Below, piece by piece: positions 1-17,594 of a stretch of DNA of 17,594 nucleotides; the stretch's first letter is position 1; every line of letters begins with the position of its first letter. The stretch is from contig CAJINV010000035.1 of the NCBI GenBank assembly GCA_905178155.1, forward strand, positions 119,571 through 137,164, read 5' to 3'. Under the pieces are notes generated by a model, which worked only from the letters and a program-made list of their open reading frames with translations, did no database searches and had not been told where the DNA came from. Source of the stretch: Amoebophrya sp. A120 (Eukaryota > Protista > Dinoflagellata). A program made the translations under genes and the position numbers.

Positions 1-257
1 GATCGTTTTTGCCAAGCTCGCAGTGCTTGGCACTTACACTGGACTTTGAGAACGTTGCTGATTTGCTAAGCGCGCACCACCACGCCACAGAACAAGGTCA
101 CAGCCAGAGATGAAAGAAAGTGAAATAATAACGCTCCAGTGCGTGAGCGCTGAAAGTCTGAACCTTTGAAGGTGCTGCTGTTCGGGTTCTCGTCGTCGTT
201 GATCTGCTTCAAGTTTATTAACAGCTTTAAACAGGGCTGGCATGGTTTGGCGTTTAA
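1..257. repeat. Long direct repeat, left copy (runs off the window start); duplicate of 6209-6465
   Basis: Matches 6209-6465 except at 131 (a vs g6339) and 241 (c vs t6449); the copies diverge after cgtttaa. Confidence 0.95.
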
Positions 258-374: not shown

Positions 375-1574
375 ATGGACATTGAGGAGGCTGCGCTGTA
401 TGGGGCTATGCTGTATTCCTCCCCGGCCGATGTCACAGGTGGAGTTAGCAGTAGTAGTTCCGCAACAGGCCCCGTTCCCGATGAGAAGACAGTAAACGCA
501 CCCGCAGCCAAGAAACGCAAGTACGACCGGGCGAAGGCTTCGCCTGTGCCGGCGCCGGGGGCAGCTGACAAGCTACCGCTCGAGGAAATTGTCAGGAGCC
601 TGAAGGACGACACCTTCCGCGAGAAGTTGTTGCAGGACTTCGCAGGGCGCCAATACGCGTCCCGGACCAAGGCTGCCCAGGGTTTCGTCATCGGGAAGTA
701 CGTCTGCCCGATCTTCGCCGCGATGGGCTGGAAGGCTGGCGAGCCGCTTGATGAGGAGAAACTCCGACTGGTTGCCGCCGTGTTGTACAAGTGCCAGGGA
801 ATCGGCAATAGTGCGGCGACTTACCTCGCCAACATCAAAGCGAGCGCAGACGGCAAGGTGTCTTGGTCTGCCACCTTGCAGGCGGAGTACTCGCGTTGCT
901 TCAAGATCTTGCAGTTAGACGCGAACCCGAGCCAGGAGAAGCCGGTGCTTGTTAGTTTTTGGACGACAGTGGATTCGATTACGCCCACCAACGACACCAT
1001 GATCGAGCACAAGGGCCAGCAGCTTTCCTGCTCGGAATGGCTGGACTTCGCGGTGTCTTCCTGGCTTCTGTTGTCCCGCCCGGATGAGCTGGCGGACCTG
1101 GCGCGCACGGTCACGCCCGCTGGGGAGGCTCGCTTTCATTTGTCGAAGTCAAAAGTTGACCAGGGTGGCCGCGGCTTCGACGCCTCTTTTCGGTGCTCCT
1201 GTGAGCTGTCGACTACCGTCGGGCTGTCCAGGAAGCTATGTGCTGCGCATTGCGTAGCTGATACGGTTTGGGACTCGTGGCGCCAGCAAGCGATGCTGGT
1301 GCACCGCCGTTGCTTCGCGGCCGTCTTGGAGCGCTGCAAGATCCCGAACAAGAAGGTGAACTCGACCCGCAGTGAATGGGGCCTCTACAGCTTCCACATC
1401 GGGGGGGCCCAGGCCGCTAGTCAGGGCGGACTCGACCAGCTTTCGATCAAAAAGCTGGGTCGGTGGAAGCAGTTCCAGACAATGGCGGCATACCTCGACG
1501 GCTGCTCCGTGAATTGCACGGAGACGACGGCAATCCGGTGGCCCCTTGCCGCCCCGCTGAATGTGATCAAGTAG
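375..1574 (+). CDS. Tyrosine recombinase of DIRS-type retroelement
   Basis: 399 aa. Box I LLSRPDE (R), SKSKVDQGGRG (K, cf. SKTDQ), YSFHIGGA (cf. HSFRIGGA), LGRWK (W) and AAYL (catalytic Y), in the expected order and spacing. Confidence 0.9.
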   Translation: MDIEEAALYGAMLYSSPADVTGGVSSSSSATGPVPDEKTVNAPAAKKRKYDRAKASPVPAPGAADKLPLEEIVRSLKDDTFREKLLQDFAGRQYASRTKAAQGFVIGKYVCPIFAAMGWKAGEPLDEEKLRLVAAVLYKCQGIGNSAATYLANIKASADGKVSWSATLQAEYSRCFKILQLDANPSQEKPVLVSFWTTVDSITPTNDTMIEHKGQQLSCSEWLDFAVSSWLLLSRPDELADLARTVTPAGEARFHLSKSKVDQGGRGFDASFRCSCELSTTVGLSRKLCAAHCVADTVWDSWRQQAMLVHRRCFAAVLERCKIPNKKVNSTRSEWGLYSFHIGGAQAASQGGLDQLSIKKLGRWKQFQTMAAYLDGCSVNCTETTAIRWPLAAPLNVIK

Positions 1575-1798
1575 TTGGGAGGATTGACCAGGATGACCGC
1601 GATGATCAGACCGTGACTGTTGTGAAACCTCCTCTGCATTGAGATCGTGACTTGACGGACCATAAAACCGAAATGATGTAGGCTCAGGCTCGTAAATTGA
1701 TGCAAATTGGTCGTAAATTATTGATGTAAATTCTGACGCAGTTCTAGTTCCTGGACATGATGATGATGGCGCCCAGATCGATGCGATAAATCCCTCTA

Positions 1799-1871
1799 CG
1801 GCAAATCTGGGGCTTTCGGGATCCGTCACATTTCTTGGCCTGGACGATTGTGCCCGGCTTAGCCTGTTTCA
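1799..1871. repeat. 73-bp internal direct repeat, copy 1
   Basis: cggcaaatctgggg...cttagcctgtttca; 68/73 identical to 2943-3015. Confidence 0.92.
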
Positions 1872-1924
1872 AGTTCTCTGCTTTAGATTTAGACCGTTGC
1901 GATCGACGATTTGGATCAGCCTCG

Positions 1925-1960
1925 AAAGTCGTGACGATGTGCAAAGTCGTGATGATGTGC
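1925..1960. repeat. 18-bp tandem repeat x2 upstream of gag-like ORF
   Basis: aaagtcgtgacgatgtgc followed by aaagtcgtgatgatgtgc. Confidence 0.8.
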
Positions 1961-2121
1961 TGCGTGAGTGTGAGTGTAGTATGCGTGAGGGTGAGCCTAT
2001 ACGTGAGCGAAAATGACTGGAGATAAGCGATCTGCCTGCGATCGTTCGTTCATGTTCTCACAGGGAAAAACGTTGATAATCTTCGGACCCACTTCTCGCT
2101 TCGCAGTCGCCCATCTTCAAA

Positions 2122-2940
2122 ATGGCCAACGCTAACGCTGCGCAGCAGTTCATGGGTCTCCTCGGAGACGCGGGGGTCCAGTTGCCCACCGCGGCGCAAC
2201 TGGTAGCCCACAACGCTGCCGTCGAGAACATCCCCGAGGAGTACAAGCCGACCTTCGGCACGACCCAGAAGTACCGCCGCCGATACGAGGGTGAGCAGAT
2301 GATGGCCATGATTGACATGGCGGCGAAGGAGATGGCGCCGCAGCAGTTCTGCGGCGTGTTGCGTGCCATCGGTCTCTTTGACGATGACCAGGCCAACACG
2401 ATGATCCAGTATGTCACGAAGCTGCACACCGGTGACATGTTGAGCACCGCCGCCGTCGGCCTGCCGAAGAAGAAGGTTTGGGACATGTACTTCGAGAAGG
2501 CCAAGGGCGTCATCCAGAGTATGCCGGCCGCGCCGGCTGGCCAGGCCAACCCGTACCAGTTCCGTTGCCGTGTGGCTCTGACCGTGTCCCTGAAGGCCGC
2601 CATGCGTACTGCCAGCGAGCTCGAGAAGGAGAAGACCAGCATGACGGCCGAGATCGAGCGCAAAGTGACGAGCATTCTTGACTCCGCCATGTCCAAGATG
2701 TCCAAGAAGCTGGACACGATCCAGGCCCAGGCTGGTCGCAAGCGTCCGGGGGAGGGTGACAACGGCGCTGGCCGCAAGTTTAGTACCCCCCTGTTGTGCC
2801 ATGATTGGATGAAAGGCACCTGCTCCCGGGGTGCTGCTTGCAAATTTGCGCACTCCGGTTCTTTGGACCGCCTGAAATTTGTCCGGGACCTGAAAGGGTT
2901 CCCTATTTCAGATGAGAAGCTGCAGGAGCTTGCTTCCTAG
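2122..2940 (+). CDS. Gag-like protein with coiled-coil-like region and C-terminal CCCH zinc finger
   Basis: 272 aa, strong GC3 codon bias, aaaATGg start context, CHDWMKGTCSRGAACKFAH (C-x7-C-x5-C-x3-H). The gag role is inferred from its position before RT. Confidence 0.8.
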   Translation: MANANAAQQFMGLLGDAGVQLPTAAQLVAHNAAVENIPEEYKPTFGTTQKYRRRYEGEQMMAMIDMAAKEMAPQQFCGVLRAIGLFDDDQANTMIQYVTKLHTGDMLSTAAVGLPKKKVWDMYFEKAKGVIQSMPAAPAGQANPYQFRCRVALTVSLKAAMRTASELEKEKTSMTAEIERKVTSILDSAMSKMSKKLDTIQAQAGRKRPGEGDNGAGRKFSTPLLCHDWMKGTCSRGAACKFAHSGSLDRLKFVRDLKGFPISDEKLQELAS

Positions 2941-2942
2941 AC

Positions 2943-3015
2943 CGGCAAATCTGGGGCCTTCGGGATCCTTCAGATTTCTTGGCCTTGACGAATGTGCCCG
3001 GCTTAGCCTGTTTCA
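2943..3015. repeat. 73-bp internal direct repeat, copy 2
   Basis: Begins 3 nt after the gag stop; contains the hairpin aaatctg...cc-ttcg-gg...cagattt. Confidence 0.92.
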
Positions 3016-3332
3016 CCTCTATGCGGGTGGCGTCGCTATTATATATACATAACTTTGTAGAGGCTTGAGAGTATTGTGGTGTCCGGGGATCATTATTACG
3101 ATTTAGACTCTTTGCGCTGTTGCTTGCGAGCATTTCTCTATGTGTTCCCCACTTCTGTGTGAGCTCGGTGGCAGGCGATAAGCCCGCCAATGAGTTATCA
3201 ACCCGCGCGACGAACTAGAGCTAGATCTTGAAAGTGCGGCATTCTGACGCCGATGCTAGTCCATCGATTTCACTACTTTTGGTCTGCTGTTTTCCCCCAA
3301 AATCGGCCGACTGTTATCGGGAGTTCGAACGC

Positions 3333-3575
3333 CGAACATTCAGAGTCTCGGTTGTCTGTGCCTGATTCACGGCCGCCAGTTCTGCCAAGTGGACTGGTCG
3401 GAAGAATTAGGTCTCGACACTTGCCTTCTCCAAAAACATAAACATAACATCAGGTCCAAGCCGTCCGCCGCAGGAAGATAGAGCTTTAGGATTTGCGCTA
3501 CTGTGTCGAGACCTTAAGATACCCACCAGTCCGCTGCTTCGAATCTTAGTTCCTGAGCTGTGAGTGACGTGTTCG
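3333..3575 (+). other. Long imperfect stem-loop upstream of RT ORF
   Basis: Nested complementary arms: 3409-3420/3503-3514 (12 bp perfect), 3388-3398/3525-3535, 3366-3373/3557-3564, 3333-3339/3569-3575. Mismatches read as G-U pairs on the + strand. Confidence 0.75.
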
Positions 3576-3609
3576 TGATTCGTGACTGACCTACCTGTGA
3601 AGAGTATTT

Positions 3610-5913
3610 GTGATTGACCTACCTTTGAGAGACAGCATGTTACTGAATGACATGCCCGCCCCGCCCGCCCTTGACAGCGGAAAGAGGGATTTGATCGGTG
3701 TTGGTGAGCTCTTCGATAAGCGCCGTGTGTACGGGTGCCGGTCCACCATGCCGTGGATGGTGCGGGATGTTGTGCAGGAACTGAAGAGGACTCCCGCACG
3801 GGAGACGATGGCAAGGAATTCCGTCCTTGCTCGTTGGCTGGTCTCGCTTCATTCGTCCACGAAGGAAGCCAATGAGGTGATGGCGAAGAGCTTGCCGGAC
3901 CACATGCAGAGAAATTACCAGAACCATGGGAAGCAGTTAGAGATGTGGTTCGCCCTTCTGGACTTGGCGGTGGACAGGCTTCAAGATCCGGACGTGACGC
4001 CGGCCGACAAGATAAAGATGAAGGCTTGTCGGCGCAAGTTGATCAGAGGCGTCACCACGCGGGGCGACATCTCGCCGTGCGGCTTCTGGCGGGAAGCTTT
4101 ACCCACTGACGAAGACAAGCGGGGGGCTTCGCCTCCTTTGCTGGACCCAGGTGGCTGGCGGCCGCCAGCTGACCACTGGGCTGATGAGGCGCAAATACTC
4201 GAGATGGAGAGACAGGCGGATGCAAATCTTGCGGCCGGTATCTGGGTGGAAGTTGACCCGGTCGCACCTCTTCCGTCTGTTCCGGCGATTGGGTTCCCGG
4301 TGGAGCAGAAGAACAAAACGCGCTTGTGTGTAGATTTTCGACCACACAACAAACACATGCGGCCGGCGGACAGGATTCGCCTGTTGGGGCCACGCCACTC
4401 GATCGAGGTTGCCGAGCTTTGTGCTAGTTCAACCGATGTGGTCACCTCCTGTTTTCAGACCAAGCGGGACGTCATTGCCGACACCTTCAGCGAGCGGGCC
4501 TTCCTACAGAATCACACACAGCCCTTCGCTTTGCCACCTTGCCGCGCGGTAGTTTCTGGCGCAGACGCTGAAGCAGGTGATGGGTTCGGTTTTGCGGCTG
4601 CCCTGGCCACCCGTGATCTCGAAGGGTACTACTACCAGCTTTGCGTGTCCAACCCCGACGAGAACCTCGTCGCCCTTCCACGCCCTAGGGCGAAGGGCGA
4701 CCGCAGCCGGCGCCGCTGGCGTGTGATCAAGTCCTACGTCGCCCTGTTTGGCAGTCTCGGTTCTGTGTTTGACTGCATCGGGATAAGTGAGTGCCACATG
4801 CTGATATGTGTGGTTTTGCTTCGCCTAGCCTGTCCGTATTATATCGACGACGCGACCCTGTTCGCGCGTCTCCTTGCACTTGCGTCCAGCGCCGCCCTGC
4901 TGGATCTATATTTGGCGTTGACGGGTTGGACCGTCGCGCACAAGAAGTCCGAGGCGCATACGGTGCAGCGGGTCCTGGTGTCGTTGGGCGTCGCCTACGA
5001 CCTGAGTCCGGACGGCTCCCGCTTGTCTGTGTTCATTCCGACGGAGAAGATCGCTCGGTGTGTTTCGAACATCACGAAACTCGTGCTCGACATTGAGAAC
5101 AGGTCCGCGCGCCTCGGGGATTTGCTGAGCGTGCGGGGCCTCTGCCGCTATGTCTCTTCCTTGAGCCCCGGCGTTGCTGGCGTGACTAAGGCTTTGGATC
5201 CGTGGGCGGATCCTCAGTCCTTCGGGAAGCTGATTCGCAAGGAGAAAAACCGACAGCAGCTCATCTTCACCCTGCGGCTGCTTTCGCAGTTCATATCTGT
5301 GATGCCGCCGAGGGAGATCTCATTGGCTGCCGGCTGTCGGCAGTTGCAGCATCTGTATTCTGATGCCGCCTGCGAAGCATGGGACGGCTCAAAGGTGTCT
5401 ACTTTGGCCGGCGGGTCCTCCGTCGACGTTTCCAAGCTCGGCATTATGATCGGCGGCGTCTGTTGTAAGAGCGGCTTTCGGATGCACATCAGAACAATCC
5501 CGCAGTGGGTCGCCGATGCCTCACCGAGCATCGGGTTTTGGGAGATAGTTGCAGCTGACGTTAGTCAGCGCCATTTTTCCCAGATTCTCGCCGGCTGCCA
5601 CCCCGTTCACCATATCGACAACATGGGCGATTGCTTTTGCCTGGTGTCTGGGTCCTGCAGAAACATGCTGATGCAGAGCGCCATTGACGCCATCACGATC
5701 CGGCTGGCCCGCCTGCCTTTGTCCGTGTACTACGTTTGGATTTCCACGCACAGGAACAAAGCCGACCTGCCTACGAGGCTCCTGAAGCTTCGCGCCTTGC
5801 AGGAAGCGTATCCGGACATTATTTGGGACGATTTGAACGCTGGTCCGGTGGCTATTCCCTGGGAGGAATACCGTCGGGATTTTGAGAAGCTTGCTGCCAC
5901 CGGTCGAAGTTAG
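3610..5913 (+). CDS. Reverse transcriptase + RNase H (DIRS-type pol); first ATG at 3637
   Basis: RT motifs RLCVDFRPHN, DLEGYYYQL, LFGS, YYIDD, SLGV. RNase H motifs LYSDAA, WEIVAA, HIDN, WISTHRNKADLPTR, typical of YR retrotransposons. Confidence 0.93.
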   Translation: MIDLPLRDSMLLNDMPAPPALDSGKRDLIGVGELFDKRRVYGCRSTMPWMVRDVVQELKRTPARETMARNSVLARWLVSLHSSTKEANEVMAKSLPDHMQRNYQNHGKQLEMWFALLDLAVDRLQDPDVTPADKIKMKACRRKLIRGVTTRGDISPCGFWREALPTDEDKRGASPPLLDPGGWRPPADHWADEAQILEMERQADANLAAGIWVEVDPVAPLPSVPAIGFPVEQKNKTRLCVDFRPHNKHMRPADRIRLLGPRHSIEVAELCASSTDVVTSCFQTKRDVIADTFSERAFLQNHTQPFALPPCRAVVSGADAEAGDGFGFAAALATRDLEGYYYQLCVSNPDENLVALPRPRAKGDRSRRRWRVIKSYVALFGSLGSVFDCIGISECHMLICVVLLRLACPYYIDDATLFARLLALASSAALLDLYLALTGWTVAHKKSEAHTVQRVLVSLGVAYDLSPDGSRLSVFIPTEKIARCVSNITKLVLDIENRSARLGDLLSVRGLCRYVSSLSPGVAGVTKALDPWADPQSFGKLIRKEKNRQQLIFTLRLLSQFISVMPPREISLAAGCRQLQHLYSDAACEAWDGSKVSTLAGGSSVDVSKLGIMIGGVCCKSGFRMHIRTIPQWVADASPSIGFWEIVAADVSQRHFSQILAGCHPVHHIDNMGDCFCLVSGSCRNMLMQSAIDAITIRLARLPLSVYYVWISTHRNKADLPTRLLKLRALQEAYPDIIWDDLNAGPVAIPWEEYRRDFEKLAATGRS

Positions 5914-6208
5914 TTGCGCTTCCCTCCTTCGGGGGGGCTATCTCAATAGATGCGAACTGGCTGTGACCTAGCTCGACCGCCGAGCGAAATCGGTGCGCCA
6001 TGTGGAATTTTTTTTTGGGGGTCCCTGCCACGTTTACTGCACTCGCTGCGGCCTCGCAGCGCACTTTCCGCGCAGATCCGGGCATGGAGTTCGTGTTGAG
6101 TGACGTCGGCCCAGCCTTGTGCTGTGCTGGCCGATCCACCTCTTTGTGCTATAGATGCTCCTCCCGGGTCTGTCCTTTCCCTCTGGGGGCAGGGGCCTCA
6201 CCTTGGTG

Positions 6209-6465
6209 GATCGTTTTTGCCAAGCTCGCAGTGCTTGGCACTTACACTGGACTTTGAGAACGTTGCTGATTTGCTAAGCGCGCACCACCACGCCACAGAA
6301 CAAGGTCACAGCCAGAGATGAAAGAAAGTGAAATAATAGCGCTCCAGTGCGTGAGCGCTGAAAGTCTGAACCTTTGAAGGTGCTGCTGTTCGGGTTCTCG
6401 TCGTCGTTGATCTGCTTCAAGTTTATTAACAGCTTTAAACAGGGCTGGTATGGTTTGGCGTTTAA
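6209..6465. repeat. Long direct repeat, right copy; overlaps last exon and intron of host gene 1
   Basis: 255/257 identical to 1-257. Confidence 0.95.
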
Positions 6466-7937
6466 AATTCGTTAAACTTCTAGAACACATTTTTCCTATC
6501 AAATACCGATCTTTTCCTGTGTCGTCGCTGCGGCCACACCACCAGGAGGCACGTCGGCCGTCGTCGGTGGTACCAACAAATTCGGTTGTTCTCGGTCTTG
6601 TGAACTACCAACTGCCGCTGCCGCCACACTTGTTTCGCTTTCCCCGTTCGTGAACAATTCCGGTACTATGTTCTGTTGCAAGTTCAACGTGCTCGTGCTC
6701 TGCTCGTGATTATTCCATGGGACTGGTCCGCTTTGGTGCGCAGGAGTCACAGCCGCTGCATATCAAGAAGAAAAATCCCCCCTCCCCATACCAAAACGAA
6801 AATCTGTGATGCAGATTTGTGGTCATAAATCAGCTTTCTCGTGCTAGAAGGACAGAGAGAGATGCGGAGCGTAATGCTGGCTTGCATGGGAAAGCCTTGC
6901 GCCTTCAGCAGGACAGAAAACCAGTGAAAGTGGATAGCAGCATGACAAATTGCCTGCAAACGAGGCCGCAGCTGCCTCTCGTGGCCTTTTAGCACTGCAA
7001 GGCGATTTTTGCACTCAAATACAGCATCACAAATTTCGTTTTCGATATGGGGAGGGGGGATTTTTCCTTTTGATACTGCAACGGAATCAGCTGCTCGTCG
7101 TGCTGCATCGGCCGGCGCAGACGTAGCTGTCATCGCCGCCGGGACGAGACTTGTTTCAGCCAGCTGGCCTTGACCAGATGCGGGGGGTCGGCTGCTGGAC
7201 GAACTAGAACTGGAGCTGGTCGTGGGGGCTTCCGGCTGTTTATGCTCGGTGAAATTATTATGACCACCTGCAATGTCAATTTGTTATGCAGGTATATATG
7301 CCTATTTGCCATGACAAATTCCATTTCGTGCCGTCTCAAGACGATCGTCTGCGACGAGTGCATGACAAATTGCCATCTCTCGTCGAGCTGGTACATTTAT
7401 TTCCACCTGATACGACCGTCTCAGCGTACTTTGCCCTGCTTGTAGTCCCAGCGTGTCGACAGTTGCGGCATTACCGCCCGAGTGCGGCGCAGTTGTCGTC
7501 GCAACATCATTGGGAACGTCGGTCCTCGCCACCCGCAGCTGCCGCTCGTCCTCCTTTTGTTTCTTCTCAAAGCACACCATAGCCGCTATGGCGTTCTCAA
7601 ATGTTGCATTCTCAACAGTTACATGATTTGCCATGCAAAACGAGCATCAACGTCCACATGGTGAAGCTACTGCGCATGACAAATTTTGGAAGGGCTAAAC
7701 AGGATGAGAGCCTGTGCCGAATTTGTAATGCAAGAGTTGCAAGATCCGGCCTTTCTCTGTTGCCATTCTTGCATCGCAAATTCATGTAAGAACAGTTGAG
7801 AACGTAACAATTGAGAATCCCATAGCCGCCTGCACGCAGAGCGCGTTCAGCTTCTTTTTCGCCAGCTTTTCGGAGTACTTCTCGGCGAGCCGGTCGAAAA
7901 GGTGCTGCACATCCGGCGCGCGGATGTTGTTCAACAT
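6242..7937 (-). CDS. Host gene 1, hypothetical protein of about 297 aa, 5 exons (approx. 7937-7825, 7581-7413, 7235-7076, 6755-6507, 6444-6242)
   Basis: aaaATG at 7937. Removing 243, 177, 320 and 62 nt gives a stop-free frame MLNNIRAPDVQHLFDRLAEKYSEKLAKKKLNALCVQAAMVCFEKKQKED...DSVAAAVTPAHQ...TQEKIALFKAVNKLEADQRRRE...SQSPV*. The 3' end is uncertain. Confidence 0.7.
6445..6506 (-). other. 62-nt GT-AG intron, probable decayed introner
   Basis: Minus strand ATCG|GTATTTG...CCATACCAG|CCCTG joins ORF 6499-6750 to ORF 6242-6502 in frame. The core 6449-6505 keeps tat...ata ends. Confidence 0.65.
6761..7075. mobile_element. Introner/MITE family A
   Basis: About 50-bp TIR (tatcaagaagaaaaatcccccctcccc / ggggagggggatttttccttttgata); perfect DR ctgca; 320-nt removal restores frame. 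Confidence 0.9.
7241..7412. mobile_element. Degenerate introner
   Basis: tat...gata ends, imperfect TIR, catgacaaatt motifs; DR decayed (ctgtt/cgacc); 177-nt removal keeps frame. Confidence 0.65.
7587..7824. mobile_element. Introner/MITE family B
   Basis: TIR tatggcgttctcaaatgtt / aacaattgagaatcccata; perfect DR gccgc; 243-nt removal restores frame. Confidence 0.9.
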
Positions 7938-9981
7938 TTTCTCCTCTGGTAGACTTAAACTTAGGGCGTTTCAATCGTATCTTCCGATTTTTGTTCGCTT
8001 CTCCTCTTTTCTATGCTACACAAATTGAACAAAGATTGCTGCCTTGTTGGCCGAGGGGTTTGTGTGATCAGAAGCCTCTGACACAAGCCTAGGTTGAAAG
8101 TAAAATGGTATTGGGAAATAAGGGTAGACCTTGCTACTCGGGAAAAATTGCAGGGTAAAATCCACAATGGAAGTAATAGTGGAGCCTTGGGCCGTGGATG
8201 TATCCTTACTCTCCTTGGTTTATCATCAAGTTCCTCTCTGCTGATAGGACTAGTTCTGCATGTAAAAAACTTATTTACAGATGGTGCGCAAGAAGACGGT
8301 GAAAAACAGAATAGCTTTCCTCTCAAAAGAAAACTCTCGACCACACCCGGAAAAAAACAAGGAACAAAAACTCGTGATGGCACAACACACAGTAGCGGCA
8401 CCCTCACCGTAACTCGCTATAAGAAAAAAACATATGCTGCACTGAAAAGATTTTTTGGGGTACGTCCTGGGGGAAGAAAACGCGGACTCGCTCGTAGCAC
8501 AACTACGAGGAGAGGTGTGGGGTACAACAATACGACGTTGGGTACAACAACATTGAACACATTTGAAGAAGTCGAACATCATCTTCGTTCGAGCCGCGAG
8601 GTCTGCATCAGTAATAAACCCAGGTCTAGTGCTAATCTAATAGGACAAGTTTGCGATTCTCAGACAACAAAATCAGTTTTTTCGGTTTTTGTTCATTTTT
8701 TTGCATCGCCTTGAAGATTTGATGCCCCTGCACAAGAAATCACTTCACTTTCTTGATATTCATCGAATGCCTCATCCTATTTACATGTCATCATGCCCGT
8801 CATCTGTATTGGAAAGTTCCATATGGTCAATCTTTCAAATCAAAAATCGTCCATGGTTTCACCTTTGTTATAGTCGTCTGTAATCTTTTAGTGGTTGTGG
8901 TTGTCGTCAAGCGGTCAGCATGCTGTTGTCCAGCAAGTGAGAGGTCCGTCGAGTATTATCGTATAAAAATCGGTGCAAAAGTTATTGTACTGAAGTGTGG
9001 ATTCAATATTCAATTTTTCTCTCGACAGCTGCAAAAGCAAGGTGCTGTGGCTTCGTCTCACATGACAACGAGCAAAGTTTTTCTAGAAAGTGATTTCCAA
9101 CGTCGAAAATGCAGGTATAATCTTCATTCCTCTGTACTATCTGTATCCTATGGTATTGTATATAGTGTTAAGACCTCAAGCTCTTGTGCTGGTTGTGCCG
9201 AGATTTTGTTTCATATTGCCTGCTACAAGAGAGCATGGAAAGAAAAAAGTTCCGTTATTATGTGCAAAAAATATCAGCTTGAGTGTAATTCTTCTGCGAC
9301 AGACACAGAGGCCGTAAACTTTTGCAAACGTAAAAGTCCTCACAAGGCAGTGCAAAATTGCATGCAACTCTAGAAATACATCAAGTTGAAATATAGTATG
9401 CGCTGTTACGTAAAAACTATCGCAGTCGCTTCTGCAGCACAAAGAACTAGGGGCACGACCACATCGAAGGAAGATGTGGCAAAGTAGTGCTGTAAATTTT
9501 CATTTCAACGTTGTAGCAAAACTCCGTTTGGAAAACAAAAGGCTTCATCTTTTATCTCTTTCATGTTAGGTACCAATACTAGTACAGCTGCTTTTCTTGT
9601 TAGCGTATGATAAAATTTTTTAGGCTTTCAAAAATGAGTTGCCCTGTTGTTCGGCGCAACGTACTGGTACAAGTCGGCCTCACTTTCGTATTTCGCAAAA
9701 GCAAATCGTAAAAAGAAAAATTATGGTTACATCTACAAAAAACTGCCGCAGGTAGTAGCAGCGCGTCAAGCTGTCATGTATAGAGGCTCTGCACGCGGCC
9801 TCTTAGGAAAATTTTCTAGGCATTAAGTGTGCCCTTCCGGTATAGGTAAGAGCTTTCAAGAATTTGACCAACCGTACACGTGCCCGAAAAGCATAAAGTA
9901 ACGTCCATAGTCTTCTAAGCACGGTTCGCCAGCACGGGCTCGAAATTCATAGATTAACGCCCGTAGTGATCGATGTCCTTT

Positions 9982-10249
9982 TATCAAATGTAAAAGAAAA
10001 AGTGTCTGGGTTTGGAAGAGTGCGCCATTTGTCATGCAGCTTTTCCATGACCCATGAAGCCTGGAATGCAGGACCTAGCATGACAGATTCTGCGCGATCT
10101 CTCTCATGCCTATCCTGCATGAGAAACTCCCTCCCGACTTGGTCAAAACGGGAAGACTTTTGGTACTCATGCAACACAGATTTTTGCACGCTTCAGATTT
10201 AGCATGACAAGTTGCATTCTTCCAGACCCAGACATATTTGCAGTTGATA
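9982..10249. mobile_element. MITE/introner family C2, host gene unresolved
   Basis: TIR tatcaaatgtaaa...gtctgggtttggaag / cttccagacccagacatatttgcagttgata; interior is the reverse complement of 16665-16932; no matching 5-bp DR. Confidence 0.8.
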
Positions 10250-10628
10250 TAACTTGCGGATGTACGATTGATTCCCGGCCGTCTGCTGGCCGTAACAAAA
10301 AAATCACCAATGCGACGAGATTCATACAGCTGTACTAGAAAGCGATAAACGAGTATTATATGGTCTCATTAAATAAACGCAGGTTCATCTGATATTGGCA
10401 TGAAGCAATGCTAGTAGAATTGTTTGGTTAATAATATGAGAGCATTTTTTGTAATTTTAGGTCTTTTATTTCGTGTAGGTCGTCTATAATAGACTCTTAC
10501 AATTGATGATAGTATTACAACGTCGTTTTCGTTTTTTCTTGGTTCACCAATATATCAGATAAGTCGAAAATAAACAGTAGCAGTACACCAGTGGTTAACT
10601 CGCGTCACTTGATGCTTACTACAAGCAC

Positions 10629-13600
10629 TTACTTCACCATTGGCGCGGGCTGCTTGCCGCCTGGAGTTGTAGGCGCAGAATATGGCGTTCTCAAACGTTA
10701 CTAGTACACTCTCAACCGTTACTGTTACATGAATTTCACATGCATATGCAAGAGATGAACAGCAACAGAAACAGTTATGTAAAGGGGCAAATCTTCGTTG
10801 ATCATGCTGCTTTCGCATCACAGATTTGTTGGCACAGATTTGATTGCTGTTTAGCCCTTCGGAGATTTGTCATGCGAAATAGCTTGACTGTCCGGCGGAT
10901 TGGGGTAGTTTTGCATGAGATTTCACGTAACATCAGTGGAACGTAACGCTTGAGAATCTGATACAGCAGGAACAGCTCCTAGTGTCACCTGCCGTCCCGT
11001 CACCGAGGGTTCTTGAGCCTGCGCTGCAGCGGACGACGACGAGATATGAACATGGCCGCTTGATGTTAAACCGCCGTGCTGCAACGTCGTGCTCGAGTCA
11101 ACAACACCTTGTTGTTGATGTGGTACCACGGTCGTGCGACGCGTTTCCCTTGCGGTCATGAGGCGCTCACCAACGCGGGCGAAGGAGCTAGCCGAACTTT
11201 TGCTATAAGACGGCCCCTATGCATTGCAAATATGTTTGGGTCTGGAAACTTGTGATGCTAAAATGTGGACGATGGCAACACTTTTGCATGCAGCTCAGCA
11301 TGACACCTTCCCAGAATGCTTTCTCATAGGAAGTCCGCATGAGAAACTGCGTTTTTGCATGACAAAAGTGGCTGCGTCCTTTGTTGCTTATGCAATACAG
11401 ATTTCCCAGTAATGCAGAGCTAGCATTACAAGTTCCAATTTTCCAGACATTTTTGCAGTTGATAGTCCCGACCCCGAGGCCGCTGCCGTAGTGTTGCTCG
11501 AACCGGCAGACCGCGTACTTATCCAAGAAGAAAACTGTGTAGATGTAAGCCTGCAATGCAAAGTACGCAACACAGATACATCTGTCATGCTGGCCAGCCA
11601 TGATGAAGTCCTGTTTTCATATGTTTTTTCTAGTACTAGCTGATGTGCATGACAGGTTTTGTTCTCTGTCATGCAGAGCAAATTTGTCATGCTGTCACTC
11701 CAAGACAGCTACACTCACCCAGTTTTTATCTTGCATAGTACTAGGCGTGTGATCAATGGCCGCGCGGGCGGAAAGTGGCGGGGGTGCCGAGGACAGCGAA
11801 GTAGATCCGGGTAGAGCAGCCCCTTGATGGCCGCTGGTAGAAGAGCCAGCCCCCAGTAGGGGGCCCCGGTGGTGCTGATGCCCCGTTCTGCTCGACGGCG
11901 TCACAGCTTGCGGTAGGGAAACTCCCCCCTGGTGTAGTTGCGCTTGCAGCTGCCCCGGAGCACTGTGGCTAGTCCCGCCCCGAGCTGCCGGCGAAGACGG
12001 GGCTCTCGCCGCGGGAAGAGGAGATGGAAAAATTGATGCTGGCGGTTGATGCGGCACCGCAACTGCTGCAGCGGGAGTTGCGCTAGATTGCTGGCTTTGA
12101 AGATGATCGCCCGTTTGGAGTCGGAGGGAAGATTCGGTTTCCCTGATTCCCCGCCCGCCACTCTCCGTCCTTGCCACTACACCTGCTCGTCCCGTGCCAA
12201 AATTATAGAGCGGATCCGCCGCGACTCTACTCGGAACTTTCGCCGGCGTGTTTATCTTGTAGTCCATCTGCATCGTCTTCAGGAGCTCCTTGTAATTTGA
12301 CGTGAGATGAAGACCCCCAGTTTTGCTATCTGCTTCCAAAGCCCCCGTGCTTGTGGCTGGGCGGTCGGAAACGCTACGGTGCCACAGAGTTCGAGCCATC
12401 GCAGCCTCCAGGGGGTCTTCCTCTTCTTGCTGCAGGAGCTCTGGGTCAACATTTGAAGCAACTTCCCCAGTAGGTGGACGTCCTCGCCCGTCCGCAGGTT
12501 GTTGGCGACACGAACTTCTCGATCGCATCTGCAAGATTTCATCGGACATCGCGCGTGACCACAGGGGCCGCCCTTGTTCCTCTTCTTGTTCCCATTCGGG
12601 GGCAAAAAGGTCCGGTGACGCAGCTCCTGTAGTTGTCATCAACGTCGGGTCGGAAGAACTCAGCGGGGGAAGTTGTGGATCATGGTGGTCTATGGAGGAT
12701 TGCAAATATCCCTGGATGTCGAAAAACTTGTAATGCTGAATGGTCATGCTTGACTGTGCCTGTAAGTGCAGTGCAGCATGACAAATGTTTCAAACGCTTT
12801 CTCATCCGCAGAACGCATTACGAACTGCGCTTTTGCATGACGAACGTGTCGTGGCGCTCTATTTGCTGCTTATGCAATACAGATTTTTTAGGAATGCGGA
12901 ACATGCAATACAGGCTCAACCTTCCAGACTCAGACATATTTGCACTCGATACGGTGCTGCGCCGCCGTTTGGTTGATCTTGCCAGGAGGACCACCACCAG
13001 CATATTGAAGCGGAGCGCCGCCCGAAGTAGTTTTAGAGGCACTTCTACTGCGGCTCGCCTGCTGCTCCGCACTGGCATTGGTATTGGCAACTACATCTTC
13101 TGCACGACTAGCGGTCTTGCCGAGATGAACAATTGGGTCCATAACAAGAGCAGGACTTTCATCTTCAATCGGAGCATTCCTGATGCAGACCTGCGCCAGT
13201 TGGTCGCAGAGTCCGGCGATATTATCAACTAGAGAAGAAGGAGCCTCTTCATGATTAGATTGCTGTTCTGGCGCAGGAGGAGGAGAAGTAGGTCCTGCAG
13301 CTCCTGTACTATCGGATCCTGTAGCACAACAACCTGACGGTGTTTGATCGATCTTATCAAGTGGATCGCCAGCATGCTGCCGGTTATTTTGAGCGCCCGA
13401 AGTTCCAGAGGTACTTCTGCTTTGGCTCGTCTTTTCAGCCTCTTCACGCGGATGTTGCTGTTGCGCAGGAGGAGCTCCTGCACCTGTATTAGATCCTGTA
13501 CCTGCAGCTTCAGTATGATTCTTACGGGCGGCCGTTTCTTGTTCATCATCTTTGCCGTGACGACGGGTCGACGACGTTCTTGGCGACGGTTCTTCACAAT

Positions 13601-16600
13601 TACGCAGCTCAACATCCTCGACCCCAGACCGGTGTTCTATCGCAAGAAAAAACTGTTTCACTATGAACTTGTGATGCATAGAATAGAACGCAGAACTATT
13701 TGTCTTGCTACACCTGCAAGCTATTGGATTTTTAAGCGCGTTTTCCCTTGGAAAGCGCGCACGGCAAATTTTCTGTGTCATGTGTAGCAAACTTGTGATG
13801 CGGATCTTGCAAAACCATCACAGTGAAACAGTTTTTTCGTGGGATATGTTCTTCATCCACTTTATTCATTTTCGACGGAGCAGCTACAGGTGCCGGCTTT
13901 GCGTCCGCGTGCTGCTCTACTAGTGCTTGCACATCAGCGGAAGAAGTTTTTGTAGTGGTAGTTTTATTGTTCTTCCCACCTGCGGCGCCGCTCGTGGTCG
14001 ACGTCCACTTATCATCTACTATAGGATTGCCTGCTAGATCAAAAACCCGGACGACCTGCTGTCCCGGGTGGACACCGCGTGCTGTGTTCTATCAAATGCA
14101 AAAGCATCGTACTAGTATGAATTGCATGACAAATTTCCTCACCATGAGAAATGGAATTTGTAATGCTGATTGACATAACGAAAAAGATTTGTAATGCATA
14201 ACTGCAATGACTACGAGTACGAGACCTTTGCACTGGATATGTTCCTTGAACACGCAAGGTTCGTCCTGGACGCAAGGCTGTGCAGTATCCTGAGTAAAAA
14301 CGTCCCCACACCAGAGTTGTCATGCAGATTTGCCATGACAGGAACATTTGTGATGCGCAACCCCATGACAGGCATTTTCAATCGTGTTTGGGAACTTGTA
14401 ATGCTGTAAACAGGATCAGCAGATCGATTTGTGACGCGGCTTTCCTTGCTAACTTGCACCACCTTACGGACTGAAACTTGTCATGCGTGACTCACAAAAC
14501 TCCTAGGCTTGTGTTGCAAAATCCCCATCCTGAGACTGGTGTGGGTACGTTTTATTTTACTCAGGATATGCAGGTTTTTGTCGGTAAGAGGACTAGCGAA
14601 GGTTGATTGCTCTACTGGCCCTCGAGATCCACTGTCCGACCTCGGCTTGCTATGAGAGTGCACAACTAGAAGTACTTACCCCTCCCCATCATTTGTCTAT
14701 GCAAAATACAAAACCAACACTGTGCCTCTTTGCACTGTTTGCATGACAAGTTTTGGCATCTCAATGAATAGCACGACCAACTTCCTGTGCGAATTTCTCA
14801 TGCAAAACCTGCATTCTTGCTGACGCTTGTATTGCTGTTTATGCGATGCAAATGAGGGGGAGGGGGAGTAGTTGTGCACTGTCATACTTGAGCTGGTCCT
14901 CGTCGCCGATATCTTCCTCGTCCAACATTGACTGTATCAACTGCAAATATGTCTGGGTCTTGTCATGCACGTTTTGCATGAAGCATGATCGGTCTGTGAT
15001 GCATGCCCCAGCATCACTGACTCTTTGACCGCTTCTTGATGCCTCTTCCGCATGACAAATGCCCCTACGACCGCGTAGCAAAAGTTACATTCTCTTATTT
15101 GCTATTGCTGCTCATGCAATACAGAGTTTTCCGGAATTCAAATGCAGCATCACAAGTTCTTGCATTCTTCCAGACATCCAGACATATTTGCAGTTAATAG
15201 ACTGGCCTGAAGAACGCACTCCGACGTCCCACAACTCTTGCACATCCTGGATGATGGTTACCTCGTTGCGCTATCGTGAGGAAAAATCCCCATTCCCTGT
15301 ATCGAAAAGGAGATTTGTGATGCTGGATTTGAGTGCACAAATTTACATGTATTGCTAGAAGGCCAAGAGACGCAGACGCGGCCTCACTTGCAGGCAATTT
15401 GTCATGCTCTTTCCCGCTTCCAGTTGCTTCCTGTCATGCTGAAGACGCAAGGCTGACTCAGGTCAGCCAGCCCTACGGTCTGGATCTCTTTCGTTGTAGC
15501 ATCACAGCGGGACTTGTGATCACAAATCATGCTACACAAATCTCCATTTGAGTATGGGGAGGCGAGGTAGTTTTTCATTGTAATATGCGCTCGTAAGAAG
15601 GACCTTCATGATCGGGCGCGGCCCCCGCCCCGATTCCATTCGATCGGCCTGCATATGCTGTGCAAAAGCACCGCACTCGTAGTACTAATCGCATTCATGC
15701 ATTGCAAATCTTTTTATTCAGGTAAATCCGCATTACAAAATCCGTTTCTAATGCTGAGCAAATTTGTAATGCGATTTCTACTAGTACGATACTTTTGCAA
15801 GGCATACTGCAGCCCGGTCGGCAGTTCCCACGCTCGCGGACGACAGTATCCCGTTGCCACCTCCCGAGGAATCACCTCCAACCACACTCGTGAGCCGCAT
15901 TCGCAACATGGCCAGCAGGTCGTACCGCACGTTTTCCTGTCTCTCCCGGATATTTTCCCTCCGCTCGCGCCGCCGATCTTGCTCTTGCTTGGATCGTATC
16001 AAATGCAAATATGTCTGGGTCTGGAAACTTGTGATGCTACAATGTGGATGATGGGAAGAGTTCCGAATGCAACCCAGCATGATAACTTTCCAGAACGCTT
16101 TTTCATAGGCAATCCGCATAAAAAAATGCGTTTTGGCATGTACAAAAGAGGCTGCGACTTTTGTTGTTTATGCAATACAGATTTTCTAGGTATGGAAAGA
16201 TAGCATTACAAGTTCCAACCTCCTAGACCCAGACATTTTTGCAATCCATAGATCGCGCCAGTTCGTTCCGCGCGACCTCCTGCACTGTGGTTTCTTGTTT
16301 TGTACGTGGACCAATAAATCTGGTTGCGTCGTCCTATCCTGAGCAAAAACGTCCCCACCCCAGAGTTGTCATGCAAATCTGCATGCCAAAAATGTTTCTC
16401 ATGCGGAGCCCCAACATGAGAAGCATTTTCTATGCGTGTTTGGAATTTGTGATGCTATAATCAGCATGATATACTAGATCTAAGATGCTGCTGAACTACC
16501 TAAACAGGATGACACTACGAGGACAAATTTGTCATGCCAAACGACCAAAGGTGGCTGATTTGTCTAGCAGATTTCCCATCTTGACTCTGGTGTGGGGACG

Positions 16601-17531
16601 TTTTTGCAAATAATACGACCACCGCGGAGGTCATCCCACTCTCTAGTGCTCCCATGATGCACACTATGCGTTGCAAAGCTGTCTGGGTCTGGAAGATCGC
16701 AACTTGTCATGGTAATTCTGGATACTGCAGAAATCTGTGCTGCATGATTACCAAAAGCTGTCCACTTTTGACCAAGCTGAGAGGGAGCTTCTCATGCAAA
16801 CGAGGCATGATAGAGGTCGGGGAGATGAGTCTGTCATGCTGGGGCATGTATGACAGACCGCACGCACCATAGAAAACCTGCATGACAAGTCTTCCAACCT
16901 TCCAGACCCAGACATTTTTTTTGTATTTGATACACATTCCGTGGTTACAATTGTCGCTTCCATAGACTTATGAACTGCAAAAGCATCGTACTCGTATAAA
17001 TGCATTACAAATTTCCTTAGCATGAGAAATAAAATTTGTAATGCGGGTTCACCTTAAGAAAAAGATTTGTAATGCATGACTGCAATACGAGTACCATACT
17101 TTTGCACGGGATAACACTCCGGAATCCGCGCCGCCATTCGCTCTGCTGCCAGACAAAAAAGACCCGTTATCGTTCTCGTAAACGGTATGGAAGTGTCAGA
17201 ATCGAAATTGATAAAATCGAAAAACTTGTGATGCATAAAATCGATACCAGTTGGATCCTCAGTTTGCAAGCGGCGCATGACAAATTTCGGGAGCACCGAA
17301 ATCCTGTCTGTCATGCTGTTTGAGCAAAGAAGACTGCTCCTGTCATGGTACTCTGGCAGCACATTGCATACCCCTAAACAGGCTTACAATCTGTCTCATT
17401 TGCCTGCTCCCCAATACAGGCCTCGAGTGCCCTACATTTTACGCATCACAAATTTTTCGATTTTGTCGATTTCGATCCTGACACATCCATAAACGGCGGT
17501 TCGGCTGCTCGCGTCGGAGTCCGATACTGTC
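10629..17531 (-). CDS. Host gene 2 (5' part outside window), about 1000 aa visible, >=17 exons, largely low-complexity protein
   Basis: Approx. exons 17531-17492, 17180-17114, 16963-16933, 16659-16616, 16329-16251, 15991-15807, 15648-15586, 15266-15200, 14929-14871, 14671-14569, 14280-14240, 14084-13847, 13632-12952, 12685-11738, 11514-11465, 11212-10964, 10675-10629 (2992 nt). They read without stops to ...KQPAPMVK*. One LRR-like motif, VVRVFDLAGNPI, near 14020-14055. Confidence 0.82.
10681..10963. mobile_element. Introner family B
   Basis: Ends like 7587-7824; DR cagaa/cagca; 288-nt removal in frame. Confidence 0.85.
11218..11464. mobile_element. Introner family C1
   Basis: TIR tatgcattgcaaatatgt / acatttttgcagttgata; DR gcccc/gtccc; similar to 15997-16250; 252-nt removal in frame. 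Confidence 0.87.
11520..11737. mobile_element. Introner (aagaaaactg-type ends)
   Basis: tatccaagaagaaaactg / cagtttttatcttgcata; perfect DR gtact; 223-nt removal joins HTPST-RSAG. Confidence 0.87.
12691..12951. mobile_element. Introner family C1
   Basis: Interior similar to the 11218 and 15997 elements; DR tggtc/cggtg; 266-nt removal joins ORFs 12930-13790 and 11695-12747. Confidence 0.83.
13638..13846. mobile_element. Introner (aaaaaactgtttcact-type ends)
   Basis: TIR tatcgcaagaaaaaactgtttcact / agtgaaacagttttttcgtgggata; perfect DR tgttc; 214-nt removal in frame. Confidence 0.9.
14090..14239. mobile_element. Introner family D
   Basis: TIR tatcaaatgcaaaagcatcgtact / agtacgagacctttgcactggata; perfect DR tgttc; 155-nt removal in frame. 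Confidence 0.9.
14286..14568. mobile_element. Introner family E
   Basis: TIR tatcctgagtaaaa / ttttactcaggata; perfect DR tgcag; 288-nt removal in frame. Confidence 0.9.
14677..14870. mobile_element. Introner with TAC...GTA ends
   Basis: TIR tacccctccccatcatttg / caaatgagggggagggggagta; DR gtact/gttgt; 199-nt removal in frame. Confidence 0.75.
14935..15199. mobile_element. Introner with family C ends
   Basis: TIR tatcaactgcaaatatgtctgg / ccagacatatttgcagttaata; perfect DR gactg; 270-nt removal in frame. Confidence 0.9.
15272..15585. mobile_element. Introner family A (opposite orientation to 6761-7075)
   Basis: Perfect DR tgcgc; interior reverse-complementary to the 6761 element; 319-nt removal in frame. 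Confidence 0.9.
15654..15806. mobile_element. Introner family D (opposite orientation to 14090 and 16969)
   Basis: Perfect DR ctgca; reverse complement aligns to 14090-14239; 158-nt removal in frame. Confidence 0.9.
15997..16250. mobile_element. Introner family C1
   Basis: TIR tgcaaatatgtctgggtct / agacccagacatttttgca; perfect DR gatcg; 259-nt removal in frame. Confidence 0.9.
16335..16615. mobile_element. Introner family E
   Basis: TIR gcaaaaacgtccccac / gtggggacgtttttgc; DR cgtcc/cgacc; 286-nt removal in frame. Confidence 0.88.
16665..16932. mobile_element. Introner family C2
   Basis: TIR tgtctgggtctggaag / cttccagacccagaca; DR cacac/cacat; 273-nt removal in frame. Confidence 0.88.
16969..17113. 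mobile_element. Introner family D
   Basis: Similar to 14090-14239; DR agact/acact; 150-nt removal in frame. Confidence 0.88.
17186..17491. mobile_element. Introner (tgtcagaatcgaaat-type ends)
   Basis: About 48-bp TIR tatggaagtgtcagaatcgaaattgataaaatcgaaaa / ttttcgattttgtcgatttcgatcctgacacatccata; perfect DR aacgg; 311-nt removal in frame. Confidence 0.9.
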
Positions 17532-17594
17532 TATCAAATGTAAAAATGTCTGGGTCTGGAAGAATGCAAGATTTGTGATGCAGGTTTTCCATGA
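17532..17594. mobile_element. Introner family C2, truncated by window edge
   Basis: tatcaaatgtaaaaatgtctgggtctggaagaatgc matches the left end of the 9982 element. Confidence 0.8.

What the first reader, a model, noticed from the sequence alone, without database searches (positions are those of the whole stretch)
6756..17594. About 20 MITE-like elements act as precisely excised non-canonical introns (element plus one 5-bp repeat)
Seen: 19 complete intragenic elements. 11 have perfect 5-bp DRs, 5 one mismatch, 2 two mismatches, 1 decayed. Removal lengths fall in all three phases, yet every junction restores the frame. They make up 3911 of 6903 nt of gene 2. Most cannot be GT-AG: at 6761 the GT-AG reading removes one base too many and hits TGA at once. 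Established: inverted-repeat introners with short DRs and non-canonical sites were described in Amoebophrya; mechanism and mobiliser are, to my knowledge, unresolved. The strict TAT...ATA plus 5-bp rule with TIRs up to about 50 bp is unusually clear here.
Basis: partly seen in the sequence, partly recalled or inferred. Interest (0 to 1): 0.85.

Follow-up and report, generated by a model that had tools for sequence, protein, structure and literature searches.

The report
Transposon introns that bypass GT-AG signals
Twenty small hairpin-ended transposon copies interrupt two genes of what is likely the marine parasite Amoebophrya; this intron class is already published, but likely-RNA contigs show them cut out to the base even where a normal GT-AG exit lies one base away, which likely reflects a relaxed spliceosome that reads a short 'UA' start signal and counts a fixed distance at the end.

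Summary
Observation confirmed. All 19 elements exist, plus a 20th in a 3' UTR. In likely-RNA contigs (one sample), 13 of 20 have a listed joint, each removing element + 5 nt; a DNA-like run keeps them. They match the published Amoebophrya A120 introners (TAT + 7 nt + AAA ends, 5-bp repeats; PMC7789003), so the class is known. Added here: (1) mismatched repeats fit one cut register only, intron = N-TAT...ATA-NNNN; (2) four elements skip a GT...AG reading one base longer; (3) two alternative isoforms fit the same 3' cut with the 5' cut moved to another N-TA, one at the only such site in 40 upstream bases, outside the hairpin; (4) the same family is removed in both orientations; (5) 74 of 106 copies in a separate metagenome assembly have perfect 5-bp repeats. 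Best reading: a relaxed spliceosome (0.55); rival: hairpin endonuclease/ligase (0.25). This scan had already noted the 1+4 register on other DNA of the same genome. Gene 1 appears to be spliced across a tyrosine-recombinase retroelement of 6.5 kb or more.

The parts
6506..7937 (-). Gene 1, coding exons (ATG at 7937); low-complexity protein; continues past 6506 into an exon outside the window
   Evidence: Open frame after L+5 removal; contig joints and a 152-nt loose end before 6505 that is absent from the window
6761..7075 (-). Element, 315 nt, perfect repeat CTGCA; intron 6757-7076, ends GT-CA
   Evidence: Joint 6755>7076, 320 nt, in 4 of 4 runs; GT-AG reading at L+6 not used
7241..7412 (-). 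Element, 172 nt, decayed repeat (1 of 5); intron 7237-7413, GT-CA
   Evidence: Joint 7235>7413, 177 nt, 4 of 4 runs, register 0-1; GT-AG at L+6 not used
7587..7824 (-). Element, 238 nt, perfect repeat; ends CT-GG
   Evidence: Joint of 243 nt in 3 of 4 runs
8677..10628 (-). 3' UTR of gene 2 (inferred)
   Evidence: Contigs of 4 runs stop at 8677-8696; zero depth 8260-8631
9982..10249 (-). Element in 3' UTR, 268 nt, decayed repeat (1 of 5); intron 9978-10250, AT-AG; pins the register
   Evidence: Joint 9977>10251, 273 nt, no ambiguity, X1 and X2; alternative 9977>10253, 275 nt, X3
10629..17530 (-). Gene 2, 3' part: 17 exons, 982 codons after splicing, no family found
   Evidence: no Pfam hit for the two long exons; no homolog
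10681..10963 (-). Element, 283 nt, repeat 4 of 5; GT-CT
   Evidence: Joint 10675>10964, 288 nt, X1 and X3; alternative 10676>10983, 306 nt, X2
10965..10982 (-). 18 exonic nt lost when the upstream N-TA donor at 10982 is used
   Evidence: Joint 10676>10983, no ambiguity; only TA at +2/+3 in 40 upstream bases
11218..11464 (-). Element, 247 nt, repeat 4 of 5; predicted CT-GG
   Evidence: Sequence and frame only; no joint among those listed
11520..11737 (-). Element, 218 nt, perfect repeat; predicted CT-TA
   Evidence: Sequence and frame only
12691..12951 (-). Element, 261 nt, repeat 3 of 5; GT-CC
   Evidence: Joint 12686>12953, 266 nt, 4 of 4 runs, register 1-4
13638..13846 (-). Element, 209 nt, perfect repeat; AT-AC
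   Evidence: Joint of 214 nt in 3 of 4 runs
14090..14239 (-). Element, 150 nt, perfect repeat; predicted AT-AC
   Evidence: Sequence and frame; indirect support from bin depth in X2
14286..14568 (-). Element, 283 nt, perfect repeat; predicted AT-GC
   Evidence: Sequence and frame; indirect support from bin depth, 0.98 seen and 0.978 expected
14651..14886 (-). Element, 236 nt, repeat 4 of 5; GT-AA
   Evidence: Joint of 241 nt in 3 of 4 runs; GT-AG at L+6 not used
14935..15199 (-). Element, 265 nt, perfect repeat; CT-GT
   Evidence: Joint of 270 nt in 3 of 4 runs
15272..15585 (-). Element, 314 nt, perfect repeat; AT-GC; same family as 6761, opposite orientation
   Evidence: Joint of 319 nt in 2 of 4 runs; orientation
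15654..15806 (-). Element, 153 nt, perfect repeat; GT-CA
   Evidence: Joint of 158 nt in 2 of 4 runs; GT-AG at L+6 not used
15997..16250 (-). Element, 254 nt, perfect repeat; CT-AT
   Evidence: Joint of 259 nt in 2 of 4 runs
16335..16615 (-). Element, 281 nt, repeat 4 of 5; GT-AC
   Evidence: Joint 16329>16616, 286 nt, register 0-2, 2 of 4 runs; excludes an equal-length GT-AG reading at register 4
16665..16932 (-). Element, 268 nt, repeat 4 of 5; predicted GT-GT
   Evidence: Sequence and frame; the 44-nt side of the previous joint in X2 ends at the predicted cut
16969..17113 (-). Element, 145 nt, repeat 4 of 5; predicted TT-TC
   Evidence: Sequence and frame only
17186..17491 (-). Element, 306 nt, perfect repeat, 56-nt TIR; predicted TT-GT
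   Evidence: Sequence and frame
17531..17594 (-). Element cut by the window end
   Evidence: Same terminal family as 9982, 14935, 16665; X2 contig continues with other sequence behind 17531
6466..6505 (-). Introner-like 5' end (G-TAT...AAAAA) of an intron whose other end lies outside the window
   Evidence: Sequence; contigs of X1 and X2 leave the window at 6505

Best explanation
These are short terminal-inverted-repeat elements with 5-bp flanking repeats, likely non-autonomous DNA transposons, that are absent to the base from likely-RNA contigs and are likely removed by a relaxed major spliceosome at one fixed register: the intron starts 1 base before the terminal TAT and ends 4 bases after the terminal ATA. 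Shown: anatomy, L+5 removal in 13 of 20, one register fitting all, GT-AG readings bypassed, removal in both orientations. Inferred: the 5' cut is chosen by sequence (U at +2, A at +3, any base at +1), the 3' cut is set by distance from the terminal ATA (its first A, at -7, would be the branch point) with no AG needed, and the hairpin only brings the ends together. Because the 5-bp duplication supplies the 1+4 flanking bases and the ends are symmetrical, an insertion at any site, phase or orientation would restore the original mRNA exactly. Mobilisation by a DDE transposase or integrase encoded elsewhere is inferred from TIRs and random 5-bp duplications.
For: Joints: 13 elements, all L+5. Allowed registers {1} (9982), {0,1} (7241), {1-4} (12691), {0-2} (16335), {0-3} (10681), {0-4} (14651) intersect only at 1. 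Ends at that register: +1 is G8 C5 A5 T2, 12 different last dinucleotides, no GT-AG in any equivalent register. 6761, 7241, 14651, 15654 offer GT...AG at L+6 and are removed at L+5; the UTR element offers GT...AG at L+8 and is removed at L+5 or L+7. The alternative donor at 10982 is the only N-TA among 40 upstream positions and is not predicted to pair with the 3' end; the second alternative fits an N-TAT two bases upstream. 5 of the 13 excised elements have predicted terminal pairing of 0.17 or less. All 18 predominant non-canonical site pairs in Table S4 of PMC7789003 have T at +2, and that paper reports U2, U4, U5, U6 and 83 of 89 spliceosome proteins in A120. A spliceosome handles non-GT/AG transposon introns in Fritillaria (PMC13326754 abstract). 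In metagenome copies a GT-AG fit at this register occurs in 9 of 194 orientations against 3.4 expected (p 0.007, one of five tests).
Against: No lariat, branch point or snRNA pairing was tested. TAT/ATA invariance is circular: it was my search criterion and could equally be the transposase signal. Only one alternative donor is unambiguous; the second has four equivalent placements. X1-X4 are one sample, unstranded contigs, RNA by guess; strand rests on the open frame. Contig assembly and decay of frameshifted RNA could hide L+6 products in coding exons. 7 of 20 elements have no listed joint (9 joints were not shown). 8 of the 13 excised elements do have well-paired ends, and all 20 fold strongly (z -2.7 to -10.7), as a structure-reading enzyme would need. 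U1 snRNA was not detected in A120. No element has G-G at first and last base. The GT-AG excess may be a CCNGG-like insertion preference.
Confidence: 0.55

Rival explanations
1. A non-spliceosomal endonuclease and ligase cut at fixed offsets (1 and 4 nt) from the base of the TIR hairpin, as suspected for euglenid nonconventional introns, which leave as circles.
For: All 20 elements fold far better than shuffles and 8 of 13 excised ones have paired termini; no dinucleotide rule at either end; U1 not detected; euglenid precedent as reviewed in PMC11282704.
Against: The alternative donor 18 nt upstream lies outside the stem yet falls on UA, with the 3' cut unchanged; five excised elements have weak predicted terminal pairing; gene 1 appears spliced across 6.5 kb or more.
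Confidence: 0.25
2. A specialised second spliceosome or adaptor (divergent U1-like RNA or protein) recognises the whole TIR, including the A-run at +12 to +16, rather than only UA and a ruler.
For: Most ends share TAT + 7 nt + A-run (PMC7789003); divergent U2AF paralogs serve non-canonical ends in Fritillaria.
Against: The alternative donor at 10982 has no such A-run; element 17186 lacks it but its joint is not listed.
Confidence: 0.1
3. The joints are reverse-transcriptase template-switch artefacts across hairpins flanked by short repeats (mechanism recalled), and real transcripts differ.
For: Strong hairpins with direct repeats are the classic substrate; only cDNA-derived contigs were seen.
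Against: Elements with 1 of 5 repeat matches (7241, 9982) are removed at the same length; the 982-codon frame needs all 16 removals; without removal the longest open exon is 317 codons.
Confidence: 0.04
4. The elements are excised from DNA in some life stage, like ciliate internal eliminated sequences.
For: Transposon-like ends; precise restoration of the target site.
Against: DNA-like run X5 has exact contigs across boundaries of 8 elements and the 6505 end at depth 18-37, equal to unique sequence; alternative junctions vary between runs of one sample as splice isoforms do. X5's joint table was swamped, so a minor or stage-specific excised form is not excluded.
Confidence: 0.06

Closest known systems
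Introner elements / non-canonical introns of Amoebophrya sp. A120 (Farhat et al. 2021, PMC7789003; passages, section 10 and supplement tables read, figures not seen)
   Same: Inverted repeats starting TAT + 7 nt + AAA, short direct repeats (5 bp in the Fig. S19 legend), about 240 nt, many families, RNA-supported removal without GT-AG.
   Different: The paper calls splice sites variable relative to the hairpin and finds no clear signature; here one register fits all informative joints, TIRs reach 56 nt or more, GT-AG readings are bypassed and alternative donors fall on N-TA.
Amoebophrya A120 introner families, incl. family 38 (Gozashti et al. 2025, PMC12130899; passages, section 6, a few supplement rows)
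   Same: TIR DNA-type introners of about 260 nt, tens per gene, splice sites co-opted from the insertion site.
   Different: The two A120 rows seen give automated TSDs of 4 and 3 bp; here 5 bp. No transposase is encoded in these 20 elements; family 38 (integrase-like ORF within TIRs) was not compared.
Fritillaria borealis non-canonical introns (PMC13326754 abstract and section 30; review PMC11282704 section 6)
   Same: Transposon-derived, TIR and TSD, removed by an adapted U2-type spliceosome.
   Different: Mostly AG-AC/AG-AT ends with U1 retained; here T at +2 is constant and both terminal bases are free.
Euglenid nonconventional introns (review PMC11282704 section 6 only)
   Same: TIR-paired ends offset unequally from the two cuts, TSD-like repeats, no GT-AG.
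   Different: Offsets are 3 and 5 nt with CAG/CTG and the introns leave as circles; here 1 and 4 nt with TAT/ATA, excised form unknown.

Membership tests
Amoebophrya A120 introner elements | Inverted repeats at both ends starting TAT, 7 variable nt, then an A-run | tested here: met
   motif as in PMC7789003. 17186 lacks the A-run.
Amoebophrya A120 introner elements | 3-5 nt direct repeats at the exon/intron boundary | tested here: met
   5 bp: 11 of 20 perfect, 84 of 100 bases match
Amoebophrya A120 introner elements | Removed from transcripts at non-GT-AG sites | tested here: met
   13 of 20 with listed joints in likely-RNA contigs of one sample; none GT-AG in any equivalent register
Amoebophrya A120 introner elements | Repeated in families across the genome | tested here: met
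   At least five families with two or more members in the window; 39,538 contigs of X5 laid at 90% likeness; 129 metagenome loci for one end motif
Amoebophrya A120 introner elements | Host genome is Amoebophrya sp. A120 | tested here: inconclusive
   No named record matched; inferred from the strain-specific TAT motif and from unchecked scan notes on the same genome
MITE / non-autonomous TIR DNA transposon | TIRs, fixed-length target duplication of free sequence, no coding capacity | tested here: met
   74 of 106 metagenome copies perfect at 5 bp, 0 of 106 at 4, 6, 7 or 8 bp; all four bases at each position
MITE / non-autonomous TIR DNA transposon | Empty orthologous site and a cognate transposase | tested here: inconclusive
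U2-type spliceosomal intron | GT/GC...AG ends | tested here: not met
   0 of 20 in any equivalent register; nearby GT-AG readings bypassed
U2-type spliceosomal intron | Lariat with branch adenosine; dependence on U2/U5/U6 | not testable with these tools
   Needs intron-product sequencing or inhibition
U12-type intron | AT-AC ends and minor snRNAs | tested here: not met
   Only 2 of 20 read AT-AC; minor spliceosome reported absent
Euglenid nonconventional intron | CAG at +4..6 paired with CTG at -8..-6; circular excised RNA | tested here: not met
   Ends are N-TAT and ATA-NNNN; circularity not testable
Self-splicing or structured RNA families (Rfam) | Match to a covariance model | tested here: not met
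   0 matches at gathering score

The most novel reading that the evidence does not exclude
This lineage runs a U1-less spliceosome whose code is N-UA at the 5' end and a branch A fixed 7 nt from the 3' end: it ignores G+1 and the AG acceptor even when GT-AG is on offer, the transposon's own terminal TAT/ATA doubles as both signals in either orientation, and the code holds over introns of 6.5 kb or more, making introners safe landing sites for larger retroelements.
Probability: 0.4. Interest if true: 0.75.

Novelty: already known. Interest (0 to 1): 0.42.

Why it matters
The element class is published, but how about 65% of introns in this organism are removed without GT-AG is an open question. 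A single register turns 'variable splice sites' into concrete predictions (branch at -7, U+2 and A+3 required, AG dispensable) that one lariat-sequencing experiment can test. This window adds three discriminating cases: introns that skip an adjacent GT-AG, an alternative donor outside the hairpin, and a frame-free UTR intron. It also explains how a transposon with a random 5-bp duplication can be harmless at any site and orientation.

Tried and rejected
No own genome is held, so snRNAs, transposases and genome-wide junctions could not be examined. No holder run is on record as RNA. Gene 2 exons: no Pfam hit, no longer homolog (weak search), no metagenome ortholog; none of 129 loci covers window exons beyond 38 bases beside an element, so presence/absence was not tested. 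Constant removals other than L+5: L+8 and L+2 keep long frames (966, 783 codons), so frame alone fixes the length only modulo 3; the repeats and contigs fix L+5. One X2 depth bin (13840-14211) is about 6 nt-equivalents above my expectation and is unexplained. In one search, 27 of 133 matches were dropped for lack of a partner TIR or flank; one search used the 97 of 106 with repeats of 4 or 5 matches. The neighbouring tyrosine-recombinase retroelement was considered as mobiliser and rejected: such enzymes are not known to make TIR elements with random 5-bp duplications (recalled). Its long ORFs gave no Pfam, useful PHROG or PDB match. Literature searches returned no paper stating the 1+4 register or a tested mechanism; figures of PMC7789003 (S19-S25), files 13-14 and 56 of 58 A120 rows of the PMC12130899 supplement, and subscription papers were not seen and may bear on this.
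Full report
Observation. A scan for TAT...ATA pairs with 5-bp flanking repeats and terminal inverted repeats, completed by hand, gives 20 complete elements of 145-315 nt between 6761 and 17491 and one cut by the window end at 17531. Repeats are perfect in 11, one mismatch in 6, two in 1, and decayed in 2. Flank identity is 84 of 100 at 5 bp and near background at other lengths; a strict filter finds 15 pairs against 0.1 on average in 100 shuffles. Both genes are on the minus strand. Removing L+5 from the 16 elements of gene 2 gives 982 open codons; the plus strand gives at most 182. Frame alone fixes the length only modulo 3.

Removal from transcripts. Ten runs were listed; six were laid. X1-X4 (one sample, contigs, RNA by guess) have zero depth at 8260-8631 where X5 has about 36, and end together at 8677-8696, so I treat them as RNA and X5 as DNA. 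Of 24 joints, 15 were shown: they cover 13 elements, each with a joint of exactly L+5 (320, 177, 243, 273, 288, 266, 214, 241, 270, 319, 158, 259, 286 nt), plus two alternative joints. Seven elements have no listed joint; for 14090, 14286 and 16665 depth and side lengths give indirect support. X5 has exact contigs across element boundaries at depth 18-37, so the elements are in the DNA of that sample; it may be the window's source, and its joint table was swamped by repeats.

Register. Perfect repeats hide the cut, mismatched ones do not. Counting bases kept from the left repeat, the joints allow {1} at 9982, {0,1} at 7241, {1-4} at 12691, {0-2} at 16335, {0-3} at 10681 and {0-4} at 14651. If one rule holds, it is 1. 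In transcript sense the intron is N-TAT...ATA-NNNN. At that register the first base is G in 8, C in 5, A in 5, T in 2, the last dinucleotide takes 12 forms, and no element reads GT-AG, GC-AG or GA-AG in any equivalent position; two read AT-AC. Table S4 of PMC7789003 fits: all 9 predominant A120 pairs and all 9 A25 pairs have T at +2, though the text reports no clear signature and aligner choice may bias that table.

GT-AG is bypassed. Elements 6761, 7241, 14651 and 15654 start with GT at the register and have an AG one base further (L+6); all four are removed at L+5. Element 16335 has a GT-AG reading of equal length that would keep the other repeat version; the joint excludes it. In coding exons L+6 products could be lost to decay, but the UTR element has GT...AG at L+8 and is removed at L+5 (X1, X2) or L+7 (X3), with no frame to protect.

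Alternative donors. X2 joins 10676 to 10983 with no ambiguity: same 3' cut, 5' cut 18 nt upstream, in frame. That site reads C-TAG, the only position in 40 upstream bases with TA at +2/+3, and is not predicted to pair with the 3' end. X3's 275-nt joint has four equivalent placements; the one keeping the 3' cut starts at T-TAT two bases upstream (2 such sites in 40). These two cases are the only non-circular evidence that UA is read as sequence, since TAT/ATA was my search criterion. Both occur at the deepest-covered elements, and both have weak predicted terminal pairing.

Structure and orientation. All 20 elements fold better than 30 shuffles each (z -2.7 to -10.7). Terminal UAU/AUA pairing in pre-mRNA context is 0.5 or more for 8 of the 13 excised elements and 0.17 or less for 5. 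Pairs 6761/15272 and 7587/10681 are the same families in opposite orientation and all four are excised.

Transposon nature. One 22-base end motif hits 129 loci in metagenome contigs, all 80 listed from one assembly. Of 133 matches, 106 have a partner TIR chosen without using the flanks; 74 have a perfect 5-bp repeat, 97 at least 4 of 5, none a perfect 4-, 6-, 7- or 8-bp repeat, and all bases occur at each position. The best match to a window element is 91%, and no window exon is covered. Pooling both orientations of the 97, a GT-AG fit at the register occurs in 9 of 194 (3.4 expected, p 0.007), G at -1 in 71 (p 0.02), G at +1 in 67 (p 0.10); two other tests were null. This is weak and may be insertion preference.

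Mechanism. I favour a relaxed major spliceosome (0.55): U+2 and A+3 are the core of ordinary donors and fixed branch-to-3' distances exist in some lineages (both recalled); A120 retains U2, U4, U5, U6 and most proteins but no detected U1; Fritillaria shows a spliceosome can adapt this way. The branch at -7 is a prediction. A hairpin-guided endonuclease/ligase (0.25), a TIR-reading specialised spliceosome (0.10), DNA excision (0.06) and cDNA artefact (0.04) remain.

Comparison. The ends, repeats, size and density match the A120 introner elements (PMC7789003: passages, section 10, supplement). Host identity is inferred from that motif, not from a named match. PMC12130899 classes many A120 families as TIR DNA elements and proposes an integrase-like family 38, so the mobiliser is not wholly without candidates. 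Passages of PMC11453091, PMC12005148 and PMC9860276 add no register or mechanism. Five searches found none in print. Unreviewed notes of this scan report the same 1+4 register on other pieces of the genome; my reading was written before I saw them, and they are not independent evidence.

Beyond the finding. Contigs of X1 and X2 leave the window at 6505 into 152 nt that are not in the window; 6466-6505 reads like an introner 5' end. Positions 1-6465 hold a recombinase-like ORF, a CCCH-finger ORF and an RT/RNase H-like ORF between 257-nt direct repeats, and X5 links the repeat end to the introner end. Gene 1 is therefore likely spliced across 6.5 kb or more, unless the RNA sample lacks the insertion.

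Verdict. Real, confirmed, and a known class; the refinement of the splice code makes an open question testable. Novelty: already known. Interest 0.42.

Noticed in passing
window 1-6465: DIRS-order-like retroelement in the order recombinase (375-1574), CCCH gag-like (2122-2940), RT/RNase H-like (3610-5913), with a 257-nt direct repeat at 1-257 and 6209-6465. Atlas look-alikes carry PF00589 (27-86% of members) and RVT_1/RT_RNaseH. The recombinase reads SFHIG where its relative P0001 reads SFRIG, possibly a lost catalytic Arg (role recalled).
   Followed up: partly
window 6466-6505: Introner-like end abutting that retroelement; likely-RNA contigs join exon 6506 to an exon outside the window, suggesting an intron of 6.5 kb or more with the retroelement nested inside.
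   Followed up: partly
window 8677-10628: A 1.9-kb AT-rich 3' UTR of gene 2 whose element (9982-10249) is excised although no frame depends on it.
   Followed up: yes
window 7577-7586 and 17182-17185: The exon just outside the repeat copies the element's own end (CCATA before the repeat at 7587; joint ambiguity 10 nt); chance, target preference or a trace of an earlier element.
   Followed up: no
window 10999-11074: One X4 contig (depth 12.9) differs at 10 or more positions from this exon: a likely paralog of gene 2 or a second strain.
   Followed up: no
window 1799-1871 and 2943-3015: 73-nt direct repeat (93%) flanking the gag-like ORF inside the retroelement.
   Followed up: no
window 3388-3420 / 3503-3535; 200-232 / 252-284: Inverted repeats in the retroelement's non-coding parts.
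   Followed up: no
L001-L129: One metagenome assembly carries the same TAT-ended family at about 130 loci with best identity 91% to window copies and none of the window's exons: possibly a sister lineage usable for empty-site comparison.
   Followed up: partly
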